This document shows positions 6,309-28,721 of a stretch of 64,000 nucleotides of DNA, in pieces (positions within the stretch are counted from its first letter, which is position 1; each line of letters starts with the position of its first letter). The DNA is taken from NCBI GenBank assembly GCA_020054865.1, contig JAIHAR010000003.1, positions 39,645 through 103,644 of the forward strand, given 5' to 3'. The position numbers were made by a program, and so were the translations under genes. The DNA comes from Deferribacteraceae bacterium (GTDB taxonomy: Bacteria; Chrysiogenota; Deferribacteres; Deferribacterales; Deferrivibrionaceae). The notes beneath the pieces are model-generated. The model was not told the DNA's origin. It saw nothing but the letters and a program-made list of their open reading frames with translations, and searched no databases.

Positions 6309-8471
6309 ATGAAAAAATATACTATTAAAGATTGGGAGAATCTCGCAAAAAAGGAAATTAAAAGTGACGATTTGTCAAAGCTTATATGGAATACCCCGGA
6401 GGGTTTCCCTGTAAAACCCCTTTATACGCTGGAAGATATTGAAAATCTTGAGACCATTAACACATTGCCAGGACTTGAGCCTTTTATAAGGGGTCCAAGA
6501 GCTACTATGTACACTGTAAAGCCATGGACAATAAGGCAGTATGCCGGGTTTTCTACTGCCGAAGAGTCCAATGCATTTTATAAAAAAAATCTTGCCGCAG
6601 GTCAGCAGGGGCTTTCTGTTGCTTTTGACCTTGCTACCCACAGAGGTTACGACTCAGACCATCCAAGGGTAGTAGGGGATGTGGGAAAGGCCGGAGTTGC
6701 TATTGATTCTGTTGAGGATATGAAAATTCTTTTTGACGGAATTCCGCTTGATAAAGTTTCTGTTTCTATGACAATGAATGGGGCAGTGATACCTATAATG
6801 GCAAATTTTATTGTTGCAGCAGAAGAGCAGGGGGTCAGTCAGGAAAAACTTGCGGGCACTATACAGAATGATATTTTAAAAGAATTTATGGTTAGAAATA
6901 CTTATATCTATCCGCCTGAGCCTTCAATGAGAATTGTGTCAGATATTATTGAATACACAAGCAAATATATGCCAAAGTTTAACTCTATCAGTATAAGCGG
7001 GTATCATATTCAAGAAGCAGGGGCAAATTGTGCGCTTGAACTTGCTTTTACTCTTGCTGATGGGCTCGAATATATCAGAGCTGCATTGTCAAAGAGTTTA
7101 AATATTGATCAGTTTGCGCCAAGACTGTCATTCTTTTTTGCTATCGGGATGAATTTTTTTATGGAAATTGCAAAGCTTAGAGCCGCAAGACTTTTGTGGT
7201 CTAAGATTGTAAACGAGTTTAATCCTAAGGATCCAAGATCGATGGCTCTAAGAACACACTGCCAGACATCAGGCTGGAGTCTGACCGAACAGGACCCTTA
7301 CAATAATGTTATAAGGACTACTATTGAAGCTATGGCTGCAGTCCTTGGTGGCACGCAGTCTCTTCATACAAATGCCCTGGATGAGGCAATCGCTCTACCT
7401 ACTGAATTTTCTGCAAGAATAGCAAGAAATACTCAGATTATTATTCAGGAAGAGACAAATATTTGTAATGTGATAGACCCTCTTGGAGGTTCATATTACA
7501 TTGAAACTCTTACCAATACGTTAGCTGAAAAGGCCTGGGAGATTATTGAAGAGGTTGAGGAGCTTGGAGGGATGACAAAAGCTATTGAAACAGGGATGCC
7601 AAAGCTCAGGATAGAGGAATCTGCTGCAAGAAAACAGGCAAGAATTGATGCAGGGCTTGATACTATTGTAGGTGTAAATAAATATAGACTTGAGAATGAA
7701 GTGCCAGTTGAAATCCTTGAGATTGACAATACTGCAGTGAGGGAAGCTCAAATCAGGCGTCTTAACAAGGTAAAGTCTGAAAGAAACAACGATGCTGTCA
7801 GAAATATACTTGAAAAATTGACAAAAGCTTGTGAAAATAAAAAAGAAAATCTTCTTGAAATTGCTGTTGAAGCAGCAAGACTTAGGGCAACTGTCGGTGA
7901 AATATCCGATGCTATGGAGAAGGTTTTTGGAAGGCATAAAGCTGAGGTAAGACTTCAATCAGGAGTATATATGAGTGAAGTTTCTGATAAAGAAGATTTT
8001 GTTCAGGTTAAAAATATTGTTGATAGTTTTGCCGAGGAGATTGGAAGAAGACCCAGAATACTTATTGCAAAGATGGGCCAGGATGGTCATGACAGAGGGG
8101 CAAAGGTTGTGGCCACAGGTTATGCTGATCTTGGTTTTGATGTAGATGTGGGGCCATTGTTTCAAACTCCTGAAGAAACTGCGAAAATGGCGGTCGAAAA
8201 TGATGTGCATGTGATAGGTGTGTCAAGTCTTGCAGCCGGACATAAGACACTTATTCCTCAACTTATAGAAGAATTGGAAAAACTTGGTGCTGATGATATC
8301 ATTGTAACAGCAGGTGGTGTAATTCCAAAGCAGGACTATGATTTTCTTTACAAAAGCGGTGTTGCATGTATTTTTGGCCCTGGCACTCCGATTCACAGGG
8401 CAGCAAAAGAGGTAGTTGAGGCAATAAAGGCAAAAAGATACCCAAAAGCAGTCAAAAATGCAAATAGATGA
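6309..8471 (+). CDS. methylmalonyl-CoA mutase, single-chain (catalytic barrel fused to C-terminal B12-binding domain)
   Basis: 720 aa; MCM catalytic-domain motifs; C-terminal cobalamin-binding DxHxxG ([12 protein letters not shown]). Confidence 0.85.
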
Positions 8472-9438
8472 AATAGTTAAAGGGGTGCTGTCTGGTAGCA
8501 GGCGGCACCTTGCCAAAGCTATAACTCTTATTGAAAGCAGAAGGGAAGAAGATTTCAGGAAGTCTCTTAAACTTCTTGATGCTATTGTACCATATTCGGG
8601 AAATTCTATAAGAATTGGGATAACAGGAACTCCCGGGGTTGGGAAAAGCACATTTATTGAATCATTTGGACTTTATCTGATTGATAAAGGTTACAAGGTC
8701 GCTGTTCTTGCAATTGATCCTTCTTCTCAAAAAACAGGTGGCAGCATTCTTGGTGACAAAACGAGAATGGAAGAACTCAGCAGACATGAGATGGCTTTTA
8801 TAAGGCCTTCTGCTTCCGGTAAAACGCTTGGTGGTGTTGCAAGAAAAACAAGGGAGTCCATGATAGCTTGTGAGGCAGCTGGTTACAATGCTATTTTGGT
8901 GGAAACAGTTGGAGTAGGTCAATCTGAGGTAGCGGTAGCAGATATGGTTGATGTTTTTACATTGCTTTTATTGCCAAATTCAGGTGATGAGCTGCAGGGG
9001 ATAAAGCGTGGGGTAATGGAGTTATCTGATATTATACTTGTGAACAAAGCAGAAGATGACAACCTTGATAAAGCAAAACTTGCAAAATCCCAAATTGAAA
9101 ACGCCCTGATGATGCTTTCCCAGAGGGATGACGGATGGAATGTGCCTGTAATACTGACAAGTGGGTTAAAAAAGTTTGGTTTTGATGATTATTTTGCTTC
9201 TTTAGTTGAGTTTTTTGATTTGATGAGAAAAAACGACTTTTTTCAAAAAAAAAGGCAATCTCAATATTTGTCCTGGATGTGGTCGATGGTTGATGACTAT
9301 ATAAAGGAAAAAATACATTCTGATAAACATATGAAAGAGATAATCGACAACTGTCAGGAAAAGATAGTTTTGAAGGAAGCATCCCCTTTTTCAGTGGCAG
9401 AAATTTTGATTGATAATCTGAAAAACATTTTTGAGTAG
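8458..9438 (+). CDS. meaB: methylmalonyl-CoA mutase-associated GTPase MeaB/ArgK
   Basis: 326 aa; P-loop [12 protein letters not shown]; overlaps the mutase stop, as in the conserved mcm-meaB arrangement. Confidence 0.8.
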
Positions 9439-9486
9439 ATTTATCAAATAGCTTGAATAGAAAAATCAAATAATTTCTAAAAAGTG

Positions 9487-9514
9487 TTGACAAAAGACAG
9501 TCATACTGTATATT
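9487..9514 (+). promoter_or_regulatory. strong sigma70-type promoter (TTGACA 9487-9492; 16-nt spacer; TGTATATT 9507-9514) with no downstream CDS
   Basis: Consensus -35, TG-extended near-consensus -10; the only downstream element is a short hairpin/C-tract/terminator unit. Confidence 0.5.
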
Positions 9515-9520
9515 CTCTAT

Positions 9521-9607
9521 TAGGTATTTGATAGAAATACCAAATACCCTCCTCCCCCCTCCTTAAAATATATGGAGATTGCCGGCTTCAACGAGGCCGG
9601 CTTTTTT
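9521..9607 (+). ncRNA. candidate ~85-nt small RNA with C-rich anti-Shine-Dalgarno tract
   Basis: Predicted TSS ~9521; 5' hairpin GGTATTT-gatag-AAATACC (9523-9541); single-stranded CCCTCCTCCCCCCTCCTT (9547-9564); intrinsic terminator 9581-9607; no ORF with an RBS. Confidence 0.4.
9581..9607 (+). terminator. rho-independent terminator (GCCGGC-N9-GCCGGC + T6), plus-strand only
   Basis: GC stem followed by TTTTTT; no A-tract on the 5' side, so it is not bidirectional. Confidence 0.8.
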
Positions 9608-9633
9608 AATGTTCAAATTTTGTTGGTTTATAT

Positions 9634-10545
9634 TTAGAAAGAGATTTTTATACAAAAGTCCTTAGTGGTGGATCGCCATTTTAGCTTGAATCTATTTTTA
9701 CTTAGGAGTTTTTCCGCAATGTTTAATCCAACGCCCAATCCCTTATGAACATCTTTAGAAGTATTAGAGTTGTTTATATTGTTTTTAATTAGAAGATATT
9801 TTAAATTTTTGTATAGCCCTGACTTTATTGTTATCCTATTTAAACCATAATTTTTTGTGTTATCGAATATCAAATAAAGGGCATTGTAGACTTCATCTTT
9901 TGTGCAGGTTGCATATATTTTTTTCCCATATTTTTTAATGTAAAATGAATTTTTTAAATCAAAATCCTCGATAATATTTTCAATTAGTTTAACAATATCT
10001 ACGTTTTCTTTGGAATATGAATTGATACTTAATTTTTCTGTTATTTTGCTAATGTTGTTCAGGTCGGTTTCAAGCATTTTGTTAATATTTACAAGTCTTG
10101 TGAGTGCGTCTTTTTTCCCTTTGTTTAATAGCTCAATATTTATTTTTGTGGTGGCGAGAAAGTTTCTCAACTTGTGTGAAAATACAAGGAATACTGCTTC
10201 GACAGTCTTTAAATACTGTTTTTCTCTGTCAAGTGTTCTATAAATTGTCAGATAATAAAGGATTGCTACAGAGAATATAATTATTATATCCCAGTATAAA
10301 AGAAGTAGCATTTTGTCCTTTATCTGATTTTTTATAAAATCTTCTTTAATATAGAAATAATTGGGTTTCTTGATTTCAAAAAGCACATAATTATTTTTTA
10401 TAGAACTATCGTTTACTATTTTTAAATAATCAGGTAGCGTAATTCTTATATTTTTTGATATAAGCTCCTGATACAGCATAATTTCTTTTTTTAAATTTTC
10501 TTCCGTCTGAAATTTAAAGGTTTGAATAAAAATAAAATTTATCAT
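9634..10545 (-). CDS. sensor histidine kinase
   Basis: 303 aa; one TM segment; H-box FSHKLRNFLA; C-terminal G-box GLGVGLNIA. Confidence 0.7.
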   Translation of the reverse strand: MINFIFIQTFKFQTEENLKKEIMLYQELISKNIRITLPDYLKIVNDSSIKNNYVLFEIKKPNYFYIKEDFIKNQIKDKMLLLLYWDIIIIFSVAILYYLTIYRTLDREKQYLKTVEAVFLVFSHKLRNFLATTKINIELLNKGKKDALTRLVNINKMLETDLNNISKITEKLSINSYSKENVDIVKLIENIIEDFDLKNSFYIKKYGKKIYATCTKDEVYNALYLIFDNTKNYGLNRITIKSGLYKNLKYLLIKNNINNSNTSKDVHKGLGVGLNIAEKLLSKNRFKLKWRSTTKDFCIKISF

Positions 10546-10601
10546 TGTTAGCCCTATGATAATTACGGTTATCAGAAAAAAGAAAAATTTTAATTCAAAT
10601 C

Positions 10602-11243
10602 TCAGGCTTTTAATTTATATCCCCTTCCTTTGTAGGTGATTATTGAATCTTCAGGGAGAATTTTACGTAAATTTTTTATATACGTTCTGATCGACTCTGT
10701 GCCAACGGGTTTGTCCCCCCAAACTCTTACAAGAATTTTTTCAAATTCGACAATTTCTCCCCTGTATCTGATTAATAGGCTCAGCAGTTCCCATTCAATT
10801 TTAGTAAGTGTAATCTCAATGTTATTTTTATAAAGTGTTTTTTCTTTTAGATTAATTTTTATATTGTCTATAGTTATGCAATCATCACAATAGACCCTTT
10901 TGGATAAAGCCTGTATTCTTAAAACAAGCTCCTTCGGGTCAAAAGGTTTTACGATATAGTCGTCACATCCGTTTTGGAAGCATATCTCCTTTGAGGCTAT
11001 GTCATCCTTAGCGGTAATAACTATTACCGGTATGTTAATGTTTTTATTCTTGAAAGTCCGAAGCAGGTTTTCACCTTTTTTGTCTTTAAGCATAAGATCA
11101 AGCAAAATAATGTCATAATTTTTAACTTCATAATATAAAGATTCATCAAAAGGGAAGCATATTTTCACTTCATACAATTCTTCCAGATACTCTTTCAATG
11201 ACTCAGCCAGTAAGATGTCATCTTCAATTATAGCTATTTTCAT
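10602..11243 (-). CDS. two-component response regulator, OmpR/winged-helix family
   Basis: 213 aa; receiver domain (IILLDLMLKDKKG) plus C-terminal winged-helix DNA-binding domain. Confidence 0.8.
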   Translation of the reverse strand: MKIAIIEDDILLAESLKEYLEELYEVKICFPFDESLYYEVKNYDIILLDLMLKDKKGENLLRTFKNKNINIPVIVITAKDDIASKEICFQNGCDDYIVKPFDPKELVLRIQALSKRVYCDDCITIDNIKINLKEKTLYKNNIEITLTKIEWELLSLLIRYRGEIVEFEKILVRVWGDKPVGTESIRTYIKNLRKILPEDSIITYKGRGYKLKA

Positions 11244-24281: not shown

Positions 24282-26087
24282 TTAGTGATCTACAGCGGCA
24301 CCAGCACCTTTAGGATAGCGAACGCTTTCTACCATTTCAGCTATATCATGAGGAACAGGTGTAGTCATGTTTTTCACAGCAAAGGCAACTATGAAGTTTA
24401 CAATTGCTCCTATTGTACCAAATGCATTTGGTTCAATACCAAGGAAGAAGTTTGGTTTGCCACCAAAAAGGCCAAGGAATTCAGTCCCTTTGATAAAGAA
24501 GATACCTTTGTGGGCAAAAACGTATAGCATTGTTACACCAATACCAGCTATCATACCGGCAATTGCACCCTGCCTATTCATAGTCTTGCTGAAGATACCC
24601 ATCATAAGTGCAGGGAATATTGAGCTTGCTGCAAGTCCAAATGCTATTGCAACGGTACCGGCAGCAAAGTCAGGAGGGTTCATACCAAGATAACCAGCAA
24701 CTACAATAGCACAAGCCATTACAATTCTTCCTGCCATAAGCTCCCCTTTTTCGGAAAGATCTTTCATGAACATGTTTTTCAACAGGTCATGTGAGATCGC
24801 TGATGATATTGCAAGCAAAAGACCAGCAGCAGTTGAAAGAGCAGCCGCAAGACCACCGGCAGCAACAAGGCCAATTACCCAGTTAGGAAGTTTAGCGATT
24901 TCAGGGTTAGCAAGAACCATAATATCGTTATTAACTGAAAGTTCGTTCCCTTTCCAGCCTGCAGCTTCTGCCTTTGCCAGGAAGTCTTTATCTTTGGATT
25001 TGTCATTGTAATACTGGATACGTCCATCTCCATTTTTGTCAGTAAACTTAAGCAAGCCAGTTACTTCCCAGCGCTTCATCCAGTTTGGACGTTCATCAAT
25101 CAGAATGCTTGATTCTGGAGCAAAAACATCTCCACCCTTAACAACAGCCTTGTTAACAGTTGCATGAAGATTAAGTCTTGCCATAGCAGCAACAGAAGGA
25201 GCTGTTGTGTAAAGGATAGCTATGAATACAAGAGCCCAACCGGCGGAGCTTCTTGCATCCCTTACCTTTGGTACAGTAAAGAAGCGTATAATAACGTGAG
25301 GAAGCCCCGCAGTACCAATCATCAAAGACATGGTGTAAACAAACATATTCAGTTTACTTAATCTTGGGGTATTAACGTAAGAAGCAAAGCCAAGATCTTT
25401 TACAATATGGTCAAGTTTTTCAAGAAGATACATGTCTGAGCCTTCAAACCCTGAGCTAAGGCCAAACTGAGGAATAGGGTTGCCGGTAAGATGTAAAGAT
25501 ATGAAAATCGCTGGAATAGTGTAAGCTAAAATTAATACACAGTACTGTGCTACCTGAGTGTATGTAATTCCTTTCATACCACCAAAAACTGCATATACAA
25601 AAACTATTGCCATACCAATTAAGACACCAAGGTTATTAGAAACGCCCAAGAATCTTGAAAAGGCAACACCAACGCCTGTCATCTGACCAATAATATAAGT
25701 GGTGGAAGCAATAAGAAGACAAATAACAGCAACAATAGCTGCTCCATCAGAATAATATCTTGTCTTAAAAAACTCTGGTACAGTGTATTTCCCAAATTTT
25801 CTCAAATATGGGGCAAGAAGAAGGGCAAGAAGAACATATCCACCTGTCCAACCCAGCAAAAACACTGCTCCACCATATCCCATAAATGCAATAAGACCCG
25901 CCATAGAGATGAAAGACGCTGCTGACATCCAGTCTGCACCAGTTGCCATACCATTAACTACAGGGTGAACACCACCACCTGCTACGTAAAACTCTTTAGT
26001 GCTACCAGCACGAGACCAGATAGCAATACCGATATAAAGTGCAAAAGTAAGACCAACAATTATATACGTTGTAACCTGTAAACTCAT
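24282..26087 (-). CDS. actP: cation/acetate symporter ActP (sodium:solute symporter family)
   Basis: 601 aa; 13-14 TM helices; SSS family pattern; preceded by a DUF485 gene as in the yjcH-actP arrangement. Confidence 0.85.
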   Translation of the reverse strand: MSLQVTTYIIVGLTFALYIGIAIWSRAGSTKEFYVAGGGVHPVVNGMATGADWMSAASFISMAGLIAFMGYGGAVFLLGWTGGYVLLALLLAPYLRKFGKYTVPEFFKTRYYSDGAAIVAVICLLIASTTYIIGQMTGVGVAFSRFLGVSNNLGVLIGMAIVFVYAVFGGMKGITYTQVAQYCVLILAYTIPAIFISLHLTGNPIPQFGLSSGFEGSDMYLLEKLDHIVKDLGFASYVNTPRLSKLNMFVYTMSLMIGTAGLPHVIIRFFTVPKVRDARSSAGWALVFIAILYTTAPSVAAMARLNLHATVNKAVVKGGDVFAPESSILIDERPNWMKRWEVTGLLKFTDKNGDGRIQYYNDKSKDKDFLAKAEAAGWKGNELSVNNDIMVLANPEIAKLPNWVIGLVAAGGLAAALSTAAGLLLAISSAISHDLLKNMFMKDLSEKGELMAGRIVMACAIVVAGYLGMNPPDFAAGTVAIAFGLAASSIFPALMMGIFSKTMNRQGAIAGMIAGIGVTMLYVFAHKGIFFIKGTEFLGLFGGKPNFFLGIEPNAFGTIGAIVNFIVAFAVKNMTTPVPHDIAEMVESVRYPKGAGAAVDH

Positions 26088-26099
26088 ATTATCCCCTCC

Positions 26100-26360
26100 T
26101 TAATCTTCTTCTACGTCAAATTCTTTGTCAATTTTACCAATAAGTTTTGCGTAGATAAATATCAATGCTACGAAAACATAGATAGAGCCCTGATGCGCAA
26201 ACCAAAATCCGAGAGGGGTTCCACCCAGTTTAATATTGTTGAGAGGCTCAACAAAAATAATGGCTAAAACATAACCGAATATAAACCAGATTATTAAAAT
26301 GTTACGAATTAGAGCCAAATTTTTTTTCCAATAGGCTTCGAGTCTTTCCTTGTCTACCAT
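26100..26360 (-). CDS. DUF485 (YjcH-like) small membrane protein
   Basis: 86 aa; two TM helices; 12 nt upstream of actP; RBS GTGAGGTG. Confidence 0.75.
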   Translation of the reverse strand: MVDKERLEAYWKKNLALIRNILIIWFIFGYVLAIIFVEPLNNIKLGGTPLGFWFAHQGSIYVFVALIFIYAKLIGKIDKEFDVEED

Positions 26361-26846: not shown

Positions 26847-28721
26847 ATGGTTTACGAGCTTATTAATGAGGCAAATAAAAAGTATAAGAGGCATTTTCTT
26901 ACACCTGAAGATATTGATAATCTGAAAAAGATGCCGTATATGGATGTGGCTGATTATGTCGGGAAGAATTTTATCGAGTGGGAAGAGCAATATAGTCAGG
27001 TATTTGAATACAACAAGCCGCCAAGGTATACATTTTTTAAAGGTGGAAGACTCAATCCATTTTATAATATCCTCGAAAAACATCTTTATAGTAAAAATAA
27101 AAACAAGGCTGCAATAATATGGAGGGGCTCTGACTATACCGAAAAAATATTTACATATCAGTCTATCGCATTTGAGGCTTCAAAACTTGCTTACGCGTTC
27201 AAAAAATTAGGGGTTAAAAAAGGGGATAGGGTACTGATTTATTTACCCAATATTCCTGAAGCAGTAATTACAATGCTTGCTTGTGTAAGAATAGGCGCTG
27301 TCCATGCCCTGTATCATTATAGCTATTCTGCCGAGGCTTTGAAGGAGAGGATAGAAGACTGTGAGCCCTCTATAATTGTTACAACAAATTATAGTCTTAC
27401 AGGTAATGAGCTTGATGTTAAGACTAAAGTGGATGAAGCCTTGAAAAAATCAAATTATCAGCCAAAACATGTTGTTGTAGTGGAAAGGATTCCTAAAAAA
27501 GCACATATGAAGCCACTGAGGGATTTATGGTATCACGATTTACTAAGTGATACCGATTTTAAAGAAGCAATGACACTTGAGCCCACAATCTTAAACAGTG
27601 ATGAACCTTTATTTATAATGATTACCACCACTCATTTTGTTGAACCAAAAGGGCTTGCCTACAGTATTGCGGGGTTTCTTGCCTGGGCACATTTTACTTT
27701 TAAACTAATTTTTGACCCAAAAGATGAAGATACAATCTGGAATATGTCTGATGTGGCCTGGATGAATAGCCACAACTATAAAATTTATGGTCCTCTGATG
27801 GCAGGAACCACTTCAGTTATGTTTGAAGACTCGATACATATGCAAAATGCAAGAAGGTTTTATGGTATTGTGGAAAGGTATAATGTAAACAAATGTTATA
27901 CTTCTCCCAGAGTTATAAGGGCACTAATGAGTGCGGATATGAGAAAAAGGGTATTTGAACGTCTTGATAATCTCGAGCTTTTTTTTCTGGGCGGTGAACA
28001 GATTGATGAGGAGCTTTTGAACTGGCTATTTAAAAAACTTGGTAAGAGTAAAATGCCTGTATTAAATGTGTATTCTGCAACTGAGCTTGGTTCGGCGATA
28101 ACTGCTCAGTTACCAGGGTATTCTGAAGTTAAACAAAACTCGGTTGGTCAGCCTTTGCCAGGTGTTGATCTTGGCATTTATGACAGCATCACCAAGACAA
28201 AAATAAAATGTCATAACGAAAAGGGGCTTGTATCTATTGAAAAACCACTGATGTCAATGTGCAGCAAACTTTGTCATGGAGAAGAATTGTTTTATAAGAC
28301 TTTTTGGAAAAATTTTGACGGTAAGTATGTTTTCAGAATAGGTGACGCAGGATATTTTGATGAAGAGAGTCATTTTTATCTCACGGGAAGAATTGATGAC
28401 GTCATACACGTCGGTGGAAAGAGGATCAATTTGCAACAGGTTGAAGATGCCATCAATAAACATAAGCTTATAAAAGAATCTGCTATTATTATACTAAATG
28501 ATGAGAAAAAAGGGGATTCTATTATTGCATTTTGTGTTTTAAAGAAAAATGTGGATGAAAGTTCATACAGCTTGATAATAGATGAAATAAATGAGGTTAT
28601 TATAGAAGAGCTTGGTGAGTCGGTGCTGCCTCAGGAAATAAAATTTGTGAGAGTATTGCCAAAAGGGGCGGAAGGGAATATTTTGAAAGATTTGCTAAAA
28701 GAGATAGCTATGCAAATGTAA
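26847..28721 (+). CDS. acetyl-CoA synthetase-family (AMP-forming) paralog with degenerate P-loop and Lys->Asn at the catalytic position
   Basis: 624 aa from the RBS-supported ATG; Acs-like A7/A8 block (GDAGYFDEESHFYLTGRIDDVIHVGGKRI); degenerate motifs detailed in findings. Confidence 0.75.
   Translation: MVYELINEANKKYKRHFLTPEDIDNLKKMPYMDVADYVGKNFIEWEEQYSQVFEYNKPPRYTFFKGGRLNPFYNILEKHLYSKNKNKAAIIWRGSDYTEKIFTYQSIAFEASKLAYAFKKLGVKKGDRVLIYLPNIPEAVITMLACVRIGAVHALYHYSYSAEALKERIEDCEPSIIVTTNYSLTGNELDVKTKVDEALKKSNYQPKHVVVVERIPKKAHMKPLRDLWYHDLLSDTDFKEAMTLEPTILNSDEPLFIMITTTHFVEPKGLAYSIAGFLAWAHFTFKLIFDPKDEDTIWNMSDVAWMNSHNYKIYGPLMAGTTSVMFEDSIHMQNARRFYGIVERYNVNKCYTSPRVIRALMSADMRKRVFERLDNLELFFLGGEQIDEELLNWLFKKLGKSKMPVLNVYSATELGSAITAQLPGYSEVKQNSVGQPLPGVDLGIYDSITKTKIKCHNEKGLVSIEKPLMSMCSKLCHGEELFYKTFWKNFDGKYVFRIGDAGYFDEESHFYLTGRIDDVIHVGGKRINLQQVEDAINKHKLIKESAIIILNDEKKGDSIIAFCVLKKNVDESSYSLIIDEINEVIIEELGESVLPQEIKFVRVLPKGAEGNILKDLLKEIAMQM

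What the first reader, a model, noticed from the sequence alone, without database searches (positions are those of the whole stretch)
9487..9607. Self-contained promoter / hairpin / C-rich tract / terminator unit: candidate anti-Shine-Dalgarno small RNA
This unit sits between convergent meaB (+, ends 9438) and the histidine-kinase gene (-, ends 9634). A consensus TTGACA -35 (9487-9492) and TG-extended -10 TGTATATT (9507-9514) lie 16 nt apart, with no protein-coding gene downstream. The predicted ~85-nt transcript has three parts: a perfect hairpin GGTATTT-gatag-AAATACC (9523-9541); an 18-nt single-stranded tract CCCTCCTCCCCCCTCCTT (9547-9564); and a GC hairpin + T6 terminator (9581-9607). The terminator has no A-tract on its 5' side, so it serves only this strand. 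The C-tract is the exact complement of the G-rich ribosome-binding sites used in this window (AGGGGGA before the acs-like gene, TAGGGGG before the csgG-like gene, AGGGGGA before pta, AGGGGGA before the fecR-like gene, GGAGG elsewhere). It also mimics the 16S 3' tail (CCUCCUUA). This is the architecture of a trans-acting sRNA that represses translation by occluding SD sequences, or an rRNA anti-SD mimic. The only ORF in the transcript (21 codons from ATG 9571) lacks an RBS.
Basis: seen in the sequence. Interest (0 to 1): 0.75.

Follow-up and report, generated by a model that had tools for sequence, protein, structure and literature searches.

The report
Conserved C-rich small RNA of Deferribacterota
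This intergenic unit is a real, previously uncatalogued small-RNA gene found in three Deferribacterota lineages; its invariant C-rich stretch looks like the ribosome's anti-Shine-Dalgarno sequence, so it probably blocks ribosome-binding sites on mRNAs, but no experiment has tested that.

Summary
Window 9487-9607 carries a near-consensus sigma-70-type promoter, an 18-nt C-rich tract found nowhere else in the window, and a one-directional intrinsic terminator.

Comparative data show it is a gene. The same unit occurs in three Deferribacterota lineages:
- the window's MAG species and Deferribacterales bacterium Es71-Z0220;
- Calditerrivibrio, including assemblies that encode the exact C. nitroreducens DSM 19672 AhcY;
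- Flexistipes.

The TTGACA and TATATT boxes are identical everywhere. The promoter spacer, flanks, 5' segment and terminator top have diverged to 33-62% identity between clades. A 40-nt core (9546-9585, ACCCUCCUCCCCCCUCCUUAAAAUAUAUGGAGAUUGCCGG) is invariant apart from one C deletion in Flexistipes. The 5' hairpin is lineage-specific.

No Rfam family reaches its threshold, and I found no paper describing it.

Best reading: a 76-86-nt trans-acting sRNA whose exposed CCUCCUCCC-containing seed pairs with G-rich ribosome-binding sites. That makes it an analogue, not a homologue, of the alphaproteobacterial 'cuckoo'/CcsR/NfeR1 sRNAs and of RoxS/RsaE.

The mechanism is inferred. Start sites do pair better with the tract than gene interiors do, but shuffled C/U tracts pair equally well. 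The invariance of the non-C-rich half of the core is unexplained.

The parts
9487..9492 (+). -35 box, TTGACA
   Evidence: Perfect consensus. Identical in all 10 full-length homologues, while the upstream 40 nt are only 45-62% identical between clades.
9509..9514 (+). -10 box, TATATT, 16 nt after the -35 box
   Evidence: Identical in all homologues. The spacer is 16-17 nt long and only 44-62% identical between clades. The TG at 9507-9508 abuts the hexamer and is not conserved.
9522..9545 (+). Lineage-specific 5' segment, from the inferred transcription start (about 9519-9522). It holds two alternative hairpins: 9523-9529 with 9535-9541, or 9523-9530 with 9541-9548.
   Evidence: Identical in L091, but 45-58% identical to the Flexistipes and Calditerrivibrio 5' segments, which fold differently or not at all. 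The start site is inferred from promoter geometry, not measured.
9546..9585 (+). Invariant 40-nt core, ACCCUCCUCCCCCCUCCUUAAAAUAUAUGGAGAUUGCCGG
   Evidence: 97-100% identical across the three clades. The only change is C6 to C5 in Flexistipes.
9547..9564 (+). C-rich tract, the putative seed. It contains CCUCCUCCC (9548-9556) and CCUCCUUA (9558-9565), both resembling the anti-Shine-Dalgarno sequence.
   Evidence: Unique in the window. Its central part has a predicted unpaired probability of 0.8-0.9 in all clades. The 9-mer is the 'cuckoo' motif (PMC4615179).
9565..9580 (+). Invariant A/U-rich linker AAAAUAUAU, then GGAG (9574-9577), then AUU. GGAG is predicted to pair with CUCC 9559-9562.
   Evidence: Both sides of the 4-bp helix never vary, so covariation can neither support nor refute it.
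9581..9607 (+). Intrinsic terminator: stem 9581-9589 with 9593-9601, loop 9590-9592, T6 at 9602-9607
   Evidence: + strand only. The lower stem GCCGG/CCGGC is invariant. The upper stem differs between clades with pairing kept: 4 pairs change on both sides and 96.9% of cells are paired, against 31-57% when partners are slid.

Best explanation
The unit is the gene for a small non-coding RNA, about 86 nt in the window lineage and about 76-78 nt in Calditerrivibrio and Flexistipes. It is conserved in the phylum Deferribacterota.

It is transcribed from its own strong sigma-70-type promoter and ended by its own intrinsic terminator. No terminator-like site was found between the upstream gene and the unit in the window, so the same terminator probably also ends the upstream operon (meaB in the window lineage; by the same arrangement ahcY in Calditerrivibrio). 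The RNA sequence would then also sit in that mRNA's 3' UTR.

The most likely function is trans-acting riboregulation. The exposed C-rich seed (CCUCCUCCCCCC, followed by CCUCCUUAA) has the polarity and sequence of the 16S anti-Shine-Dalgarno tail. It would pair with G-rich Shine-Dalgarno (SD) regions (UAAGGAGG(GG), AGGGGGA) and compete with the 30S subunit for them, repressing translation and possibly destabilising the mRNA. The A/U-rich stretch, terminator hairpin and U-tail would form the stability or chaperone-binding module.

Shown here: sequence anatomy, conservation pattern, non-coding nature, terminator covariation, absence from Rfam.
Inferred: expression, transcription start site, single-strandedness, targets, direction of regulation.
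For: 1. Homologues found by neighbouring proteins, so with no bias toward the RNA sequence. L091 is Deferribacterales bacterium Es71-Z0220 (MeaB 82% identical). L221, L222, L224, L226, L227 and L228 are Calditerrivibrio (MeaB about 55-58% identical to the window's; AhcY 92-100% identical to C. nitroreducens). All carry the full 40-nt core unchanged.
2. The metagenome pattern scan added Flexistipes copies (L108, L162, L194; ProA 93-94% identical to Flexistipes sp.) and further Calditerrivibrio-type copies (L208, L178).
3. Identity by segment between clades: -35 box 100%, -10 box 100%, core 97-100%, terminator base 100%. Against that: spacer 44-62%, 5' segment 45-58%, terminator top 33-55%, flanks 42-62%. 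This is the signature of a promoter plus a functional RNA.
4. The terminator upper stem changes with pairing preserved.
5. Genomic context differs between clades: meaB then the sRNA in the same direction; ahcY then the sRNA, convergent with meaB; and between a TPR gene and a thioesterase-like gene. There is no conserved downstream gene, so the unit stands alone.
6. Candidate ORFs are not conserved, and the C6/C5 indel shifts the reading frame.
7. The central C-tract is predicted to be accessible in all clades.
8. The window contains matching sites exactly at ribosome-binding sites: UUAAGGAGGGG 5 nt before the SSF symporter start (-21.7 kcal/mol), UUAAGGAGG before bioY, and UAAGGAGG before an acetyl-CoA hydrolase/transferase gene.
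9. Known sRNAs with the same CCUCCUCCC motif are described as anti-SD-like (PMC4615179).
Against: - There are no expression data.
- The pairing enrichment at start sites (median -9.7 against -5.3 kcal/mol, p = 3e-12) is matched by shuffled C/U tracts (-9.46 +/- 0.30 against -9.81). My choice of start codons also favoured sites with an SD. The target analysis is therefore non-specific.
- Seed-type sRNAs rarely keep 40 consecutive nucleotides invariant across families. The invariance of AAAAUAUAUGGAGAUU is not explained by SD occlusion.
- GGAG is predicted to sequester the 3' CCUCC.
- A near-consensus promoter with no recognisable conserved operator suggests high constitutive expression. That is unusual for a repressor of strong-SD mRNAs.
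- The Flexistipes copies were found with a pattern that fixed 19 bases of the tract. Invariance of those bases in that clade is partly an ascertainment effect.
- The unit is missing from the meaB-downstream position in five other relatives (L092-L103). Whether those genomes carry it elsewhere is unknown.
Confidence: 0.55

Rival explanations
1. Mimic or decoy of the 16S rRNA 3' tail. The RNA is an abundant housekeeping molecule that presents CCUCCUUA, the sequence at the 16S 3' end. It would not regulate a few mRNAs. Instead it would titrate a conserved partner that normally recognises the anti-SD tail (for example an Era-type KH protein, a 16S 3'-end maturation factor, or S1/S21/IF3), or it would buffer all strong SDs globally.
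For: - The 40-nt invariance across clades with about 55% MeaB identity fits contact with a highly conserved macromolecule better than it fits a short seed.
- CCUCCUUA is present exactly (9558-9565).
- The promoter is near-consensus, has an A/T-rich upstream region and shows no conserved operator.
- The best predicted mRNA partners are simply the strongest canonical SDs, UAAGGAGG.
- Pairing is not order-specific.
Against: - There is no direct evidence for any protein partner.
- The 16S 3' end of these organisms was not available to compare.
- The tract is much longer and richer in C than the rRNA tail.
- Known CCUCCUCCC sRNAs act on specific mRNAs (literature).
Confidence: 0.12
2. A cis-acting 3'-end element of the upstream operon. 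The conserved sequence would work as part of the meaB or ahcY mRNA 3' UTR (terminator plus stabiliser, or a sponge site), and the promoter-like boxes would be incidental or secondary.
For: No terminator-like site lies between the meaB stop (9438) and the unit. In Calditerrivibrio the -35 box starts about 30 nt after the ahcY stop codon. Upstream transcripts therefore probably end at this terminator. The Rhodobacter CcsR sRNAs with the same motif are co-transcribed with an upstream gene (own knowledge; PMC8034643 is listed).
Against: - Both promoter hexamers and their spacing are perfectly conserved in three clades while the spacers diverge.
- In Flexistipes the upstream gene is divergent, so the unit cannot be anyone's 3' UTR there.
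- The upstream gene differs between clades.
Confidence: 0.1
3. A cis-antisense regulator, or a sponge for a G-rich RNA. The RNA would pair with read-through transcripts of the convergent gene (the 303-aa ORF/response-regulator operon in the window; meaB in Calditerrivibrio), or would sequester a G-rich sRNA.
For: The terminator works in one direction only, so convergent transcription would produce a perfect antisense RNA. Linkage to the 3' end of meaB is kept in two clades.
Against: The convergent partner differs between the window and L091, and there is none in Flexistipes. The orientation relative to meaB flips between clades. A cis-antisense role would not require an invariant sequence.
Confidence: 0.06
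4. The unit encodes a micro-protein: either the 21-codon ORF from 9572, or a Leu/Pro-rich peptide read through the C-tract.
For: ORFs exist: 9572-9637, 21 aa. A UUG-initiated reading through the tract ends ...TLLPPP* in the window (read from the sequence).
Against: - The 9572 ORF keeps only MEIAG before it diverges inside the variable terminator, and it has no SD.
- The C6/C5 indel in Flexistipes shifts the tract frame.
- Calditerrivibrio has no start codon in that frame.
Confidence: 0.02

Closest known systems
'Cuckoo' RNA family of Alphaproteobacteria (alpha-r14 / Rfam RF02344, RSs0680a-d = CcsR1-4 of Rhodobacter sphaeroides, NfeR1 and SmelC397 of Sinorhizobium)
   Same: - Carries exactly the motif CCUCCUCCC (window 9548-9556), which PMC4615179 describes as resembling an anti-SD sequence.
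- It is a small RNA with an intrinsic terminator.
- It can lie directly behind, and probably be co-transcribed with, an upstream gene.
- The presumed mode of action is pairing with ribosome-binding regions.
   Different: - Cuckoo RNAs are defined by 2-4 adjacent hairpins (helix of at least 6 bp), each carrying the motif in its loop. Here there is one extended tract in a linker, with no such hairpins.
- The Rfam ar14 model scores 13.7 bits against a gathering threshold of 58.8.
- Cuckoo RNAs are restricted to Rhizobiales and Rhodobacterales and are often multicopy. Here the RNA is in Deferribacterota and occurs once in the 64-kb window.
- Cuckoo stems are highly variable. Here 40 nt are invariant.
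- Most likely convergence, not homology.
RoxS / RsaE of Bacillota (Rfam RF01820)
   Same: A widely conserved trans-acting sRNA with C-rich regions that pair with G-rich SD regions of central-metabolism mRNAs (PMC4409812 and PMC6158497, listed; details from my own knowledge). The predicted targets here are likewise carboxylate and CoA-metabolism genes.
   Different: No match to the RsaE model even at E <= 10. RoxS has several short C-rich regions, mostly in loops. Different phylum. No shared sequence beyond C-runs.
Other sub-threshold Rfam look-alikes: anti-hemB (Burkholderia RNA 7, RF02837) and SorX (RF02784)
   Same: The anti-hemB consensus has CUCCUCCC in a hairpin loop followed by two hairpins and a terminator. 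The SorX alignment rests mainly on the GC-rich terminator.
   Different: Scores are 21.7 against a threshold of 49.5, and 23.4 against 46.6. These hits appear only with the Calditerrivibrio copy, not with the window or Flexistipes copies.
Streptococcal csRNAs and Helicobacter RepG (recalled from my own knowledge, not tested here)
   Same: csRNAs carry stretches complementary to the SD and the start codon. RepG uses a C/U-rich loop to bind a G-repeat in an mRNA leader. Both are sRNAs whose pyrimidine-rich seeds target G-rich translation-initiation regions.
   Different: Unrelated sequences and phyla. In RepG the seed lies in the terminator loop. Neither has a long invariant core.

Membership tests
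Cuckoo RNA / alpha-r14 (RF02344) | Presence of the CCUCCUCCC motif | tested here: met
   Window 9548-9556, read from the sequence. The motif definition comes from PMC4615179.
Cuckoo RNA / alpha-r14 (RF02344) | 2-4 adjacent hairpins (helix of at least 6 bp), each with the motif in its loop | tested here: not met
   The individual folds and the consensus fold place the tract in a linker. The only nearby helix is the 4-bp CUCC/GGAG pairing, and there is one tract, not 2-4 modules.
Cuckoo RNA / alpha-r14 (RF02344) | Score at or above the Rfam gathering threshold | tested here: not met
   13.7 bits against 58.8. Not listed at all for the Flexistipes or Calditerrivibrio copies.
Cuckoo RNA / alpha-r14 (RF02344) | Taxonomic range: Rhizobiales and Rhodobacterales | tested here: not met
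   The hosts are Deferribacterota: names attached to MeaB, AhcY and ProA homologues.
RoxS / RsaE (RF01820) | Match to the family covariance model | tested here: not met
   No hit at E <= 10 in three searches of three clade representatives.
Trans-encoded base-pairing sRNA (generic class) | Own promoter | tested here: inconclusive
   Consensus -35 and -10 boxes are perfectly conserved while the spacers diverge. The transcription start site was not measured.
Trans-encoded base-pairing sRNA (generic class) | Rho-independent terminator at the 3' end | tested here: met
   (pairing kept through changes on both sides).
Trans-encoded base-pairing sRNA (generic class) | Conserved, accessible seed region | tested here: met
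   Invariant tract with predicted unpaired probability 0.8-0.9 over its central 10-12 nt. This is a prediction only.
Trans-encoded base-pairing sRNA (generic class) | Specific mRNA targets regulated through the seed | tested here: inconclusive
   Complementary RBSs exist, but the enrichment is not specific to the real tract order. Experiments are needed.
Trans-encoded base-pairing sRNA (generic class) | Detectable discrete transcript; chaperone (Hfq/ProQ) dependence | not testable with these tools
   No transcriptome data were available, and no paper on sRNAs of Calditerrivibrio or Flexistipes was found.

The most novel reading that the evidence does not exclude
The RNA is not an ordinary gene-specific riboregulator. 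It is a phylum-wide, constitutively made mimic of the 16S rRNA 3' tail that also carries an SD-like GGAG pairing back on it. It would act on the translation apparatus itself, either by competing with 30S subunits for all strong SD sequences or by titrating a factor that recognises the anti-SD tail. That would explain why 40 consecutive nucleotides, not just a seed, are frozen across Flexistipes, Calditerrivibrio and the window lineage.
Probability: 0.1. Interest if true: 0.85.

Novelty: new variant of a known kind. Interest (0 to 1): 0.55.

Why it matters
- No RNA regulator from Deferribacterota turned up in Rfam 15 or in the literature searches run here. This would give the phylum a conserved sRNA family, with a testable gene in a strain available in culture (Calditerrivibrio nitroreducens DSM 19672, ahcY-meaB spacer).
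- The CCUCCUCCC anti-SD motif, known from Alphaproteobacteria, would be shown to have arisen again in an unrelated phylum and a different architecture. That supports the idea that anti-SD mimicry is a recurrent solution for translational control.
- The invariance extends well beyond a seed. This is unusual, and it could point to a partner other than mRNAs.
- The family could be added to Rfam. Covariance model R1, built here, separates true copies (98-110 bits full length; 68 bits for a copy cut by a contig end) from everything else (28 bits or less).

Tried and rejected
- **Ten contigs of the same species.** They are 99.1-100% identical and the unit is identical in all. Uninformative: about one substitution would be expected in the unit by chance.
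- **Rfam, at gathering threshold on the whole window and at E-value threshold on three clade representatives.** Nothing reached threshold. The rseX, L10-leader, SorX, anti-hemB and STnc480 hits rest on the terminator or on C-runs.
- **Coding hypotheses.** Rejected by the comparative data.
- **Riboswitch or leader of a downstream gene.** Rejected: the downstream genes are convergent in two clades.
- **Mobile or phage origin.** No exact core match in IMG/VR and no blastn match in the plasmid or phage collections.
- **Additional or divergent copies.** Model R1 was searched over 38 sources (the window plus 37 loci, 311 kb). Only the known copies scored 68-110 bits; the next best was 28 bits, an unrelated palindrome in L196.
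- **The metagenome pattern hits.** About 110 of the 117 are chance C/U-rich sequences.
- **Target enrichment as support for the mechanism.** Rejected as non-specific after the shuffled-tract control.
- **Helix CUCC/GGAG.** It cannot be tested by covariation because it never varies.
Full report
**1. What is in the window**

The sequence elements sit at the stated coordinates:
- TTGACA at 9487-9492, a 16-nt spacer, and TATATT at 9509-9514. This matches 11 of 12 consensus positions and is the best promoter-like site in 8500-10500.
- A 5' hairpin, GGTATTT/AAATACC (9523-9541).
- CCCTCCTCCCCCCTCCTT at 9547-9564.
- A terminator, GCCGGCTTC-AAC-GAGGCCGGC (9581-9601) followed by T6 (9602-9607). The scan detects it on the + strand only.

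The C-tract is unique in the 64 kb even with three mismatches allowed (0.02 expected). It is the longest C-rich run in a sequence that is 35% G+C and 16% C. The putative RNA 9521-9608 folds at -28.6 kcal/mol, z = -4.5.

The unit lies between meaB (8458-9438, Pfam MeaB E = 2e-100) and a convergent 303-aa ORF (9634-10545). That ORF has no Pfam domain, so the 'histidine kinase' label is not supported. A response-regulator gene lies upstream of it on the same strand.

Minor corrections:
- The TG abuts the -10 hexamer, so this is not a canonical extended -10.
- The small ORF starts at 9572.
- AAATACC is tandemly duplicated (9535-9548), which gives two alternative 5' hairpins.

Promoter-like matches alone are not above chance in this AT-rich region (11 found against 8.3 +/- 2.9).

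**2. Organism and close relatives**

The window's MeaB is named 'MAG: Deferribacteres bacterium' by NCBI. Ten contigs of the same species from different samples are 99.1-100% identical, and the unit is identical in all of them. That is uninformative.

The next relative is Deferribacterales bacterium Es71-Z0220 (L091). Its MeaB is 82% identical, and its upstream carboxylase and mutase genes are 93-94% identical. It has the unit at the same place. From the hairpin to the T-run it is 100% identical, with identical TTGACA and TATATT boxes. The promoter spacer, the upstream flank and the downstream flank have all diverged. The downstream genes also differ: an AbiEii-like pair replaces the 303-aa ORF and response regulator.

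Five other meaB relatives (70-81% identical) have no such unit downstream of meaB. Only about 4 kb on each side was visible, so those genomes may carry it elsewhere.

**3. More distant homologues**

One metagenome scan with ACCCTCCTCCN{0,8}CCTCCTTAA returned 117 stretches. Most are chance matches. Five carry the same downstream sequence, AAAATATATGGAGATTGCCGG, plus a terminator, and the same promoter boxes upstream.

Neighbouring proteins place them as follows:
- L208 has a convergent meaB and mutase. Its MeaB is 55% identical to the window's and 73-87% identical to P0014, P0029 and P0015.
- Looking up those three proteins is a route blind to the RNA sequence. It gave L221, L222, L224 and L226, and every one has the unit between ahcY and the 3' end of meaB.
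- The AhcY of L221 is 92% identical to that of Calditerrivibrio nitroreducens DSM 19672.
- Assemblies encoding that exact protein (L227, L228) have the unit too.
- L108, L162 and L194 are Flexistipes: their ProA is 93-94% identical to Flexistipes sp.. There the unit lies between a divergent TPR gene and a co-directional thioesterase-like gene.
- Deferribacteraceae bacterium V6Fe1 has only a plain terminator after ahcY.

**4. Conservation pattern**

In the alignment of eight distinct copies, a 40-nt core is invariant except for C6 becoming C5 in Flexistipes. The core is window 9546-9585, ACCCUCCUCCCCCCUCCUUAAAAUAUAUGGAGAUUGCCGG.

| Segment | Identity between clades |
|---|---|
| -35 box | 100% |
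| -10 box | 100% |
| Core | 97-100% |
| 3' base of the terminator | 100% |
| Promoter spacer | 44-62% |
| 5' segment | 45-58% |
| Terminator top | 33-55% |
| 40-nt flanks | 42-62% |

The flank values are roughly what a global alignment of unrelated AT-rich sequence gives.

The terminator upper stem changes with pairing preserved. Four pairs change on both sides. 96.9% of cells are paired, against 31-57% when the partners are slid by one to three columns.

Calditerrivibrio has a different small hairpin that also reaches into the first ACC(CUC) of the core. Flexistipes has none.

One caveat on ascertainment. The Flexistipes copies were found with a pattern that fixes 19 bases of the tract, so invariance of those bases in that clade is partly built in. 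The remaining 20 nt of the core, and all copies found through proteins, are free of this bias.

**5. What it is not**

- **Not a known RNA family.** No Rfam 15 family reaches its gathering score on the window. Sensitive scans of three clade representatives give only sub-threshold hits that rest on the terminator or on C-runs: rseX 23 bits, ar14 13.7, SorX 23.4, anti-hemB 21.7.
- **Not coding.** The 21-codon ORF keeps only MEIAG before entering the variable terminator. The C-run indel shifts any frame read through the tract.
- **Not a leader.** The downstream genes are convergent in two clades.
- **Not mobile or viral, as far as could be checked.** There are no matches in IMG/VR, plasmids or phages.
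- **Not multicopy in the DNA examined.** Covariance model R1 finds the known full-length copies at 98-110 bits (68 bits for one cut by a contig end) and nothing else above 28 bits in 311 kb.

**6. How it probably works**

Partition-function folding of all clades leaves the central tract (CUCCUCCCCCC) largely unpaired, with unpaired probability 0.8-0.9. GGAG (9574-9577) is almost always paired with a CUCC of the tract, and the A/U-rich loop stays open.

The tract contains CCUCCUCCC (9548-9556) and CCUCCUUA (9558-9565). Both have the sequence and polarity of the anti-Shine-Dalgarno (anti-SD) tail. The natural model is competition with 30S subunits for G-rich Shine-Dalgarno (SD) regions.

The window offers plausible sites, each positioned 5-6 nt before a start codon:
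- An 11-nt perfect match, UUAAGGAGGGG, at the intercistronic ribosome-binding site (RBS) of a two-subunit sodium:solute symporter that lies divergent from acs (-21.7 kcal/mol).
- UUAAGGAGG before bioY.
- UAAGGAGG before an acetyl-CoA hydrolase/transferase gene.
- AGGGGGA-type sites before acs and a fecR-like gene.

This support is weak, however. Translation-initiation regions do pair better than gene interiors (median -9.7 against -5.3 kcal/mol, p = 3e-12). But thirty shuffled C/U tracts do as well as the real one (-9.46 +/- 0.30 against -9.81), and my choice of start codons favoured SD-bearing sites. The mechanism therefore remains an inference from anatomy and from analogy.

**7. Comparison with what is known**

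The exact 9-mer CCUCCUCCC defines the alphaproteobacterial 'cuckoo' RNAs (alpha-r14, RSs0680/CcsR, NfeR1). In those RNAs it sits in the loops of 2-4 adjacent hairpins and is described as resembling an anti-SD sequence (PMC4615179).

The present RNA shares the motif and the presumed logic. It fails the family's defining architecture, the covariance-model threshold and the taxonomic range. It is therefore an analogue, most likely convergent.

RoxS/RsaE of Bacillota work on the same principle with C-rich regions (papers listed; details from my own knowledge), but they show no model match.

No paper on sRNAs of Calditerrivibrio, Flexistipes or Deferribacteres was found.

**8. What remains odd**

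- Forty consecutive invariant nucleotides between lineages whose MeaB proteins are about 55% identical is far more than a seed needs.
- The A/U linker, GGAG and AUU are as frozen as the C-tract.
- The promoter is near-consensus with no recognisable conserved operator.
- The gene stays next to the 3' end of meaB in two clades, but in opposite orientations.

These points keep alive a less ordinary reading: a mimic of the 16S 3' tail acting on the translation apparatus or on a tail-binding factor. I put its probability at about 0.1.

**9. Verdict**

It is a conserved, uncatalogued sRNA gene family of Deferribacterota. The proposed anti-SD mechanism is the best available explanation (about 0.55) but is untested. 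In kind it is a new variant of the known class of C-rich, anti-SD-like riboregulators. Interest is moderate.

Noticed in passing
L112 288-355 (-), contig AAUQ01054362.1: The identical 21-mer ACCCTCCTCCCCCCTCCTTAA sits in the loop of a terminator-like hairpin (GCCCCTGTTTGTTTT ... AAACAAACAGGGC followed by T6) in an unrelated low-GC contig. Model R1 scores it only 18.6 bits. It may be an independent sRNA that presents a C-rich loop.
   Followed up: partly
L125 / L215 (GC about 0.55) and L211 / L214 (GC about 0.35), at the pattern-match positions listed: C/U-rich anti-SD-like tracts (ACCCTCCTCCTTCCTCCTTAA and ACCCTCCTCCTTAACTCCTCCTTAA) are directly followed by a GC hairpin and a T-run, in unrelated organisms. 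These are further candidates for sRNA 3' ends of the same kind.
   Followed up: no
L196 689-767 and 1872-1963 (+): A C-rich tract is immediately followed by its G-rich complement, forming long palindromic hairpins inside what reads like coding sequence. These were the best non-family hits of model R1 (28 and 24 bits).
   Followed up: partly
window 9535-9548: AAATACC is tandemly duplicated. The 5' arm GGTATTT(G) can therefore pair with either copy. The outer pairing sequesters the first ACC of the invariant core.
   Followed up: partly
window 9634-10545 (-): This 303-aa ORF lies downstream of a response-regulator gene (10602-11243). It has no Pfam domain at all (best E = 0.014, noise). It is not recognisable as a histidine kinase.
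   Followed up: partly
window 24282-26360 (-) and 26847-28721 (+): An 86-aa small membrane ORF and a 601-aa sodium:solute symporter lie divergent from an acetyl-CoA-synthetase-like gene. The symporter's RBS, UUAAGGAGGGG, overlaps the stop codon of the small ORF. It is the longest perfect complement to the sRNA tract in the window.
   Followed up: partly
window 9608-11243 compared with L091 5160-6340: Synteny breaks exactly at the sRNA terminator. Upstream, the operons are 82-94% identical at protein level. Downstream, the window has the 303-aa ORF and response regulator, while Es71-Z0220 has an AbiEii-like gene pair.
   Followed up: no
L108 about 525-590, L162 and L194 (equivalent positions): Upstream of the Flexistipes promoter there is a conserved stretch, CCCCATT(T/A)CACTATA(T/A)TAACG. 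It loosely resembles the 3' end of ahcY (..CCATTACACTATAGGTATTAA) that precedes the unit in Calditerrivibrio. It may be a remnant of an ancestral ahcY-sRNA arrangement. Not verified.
   Followed up: no
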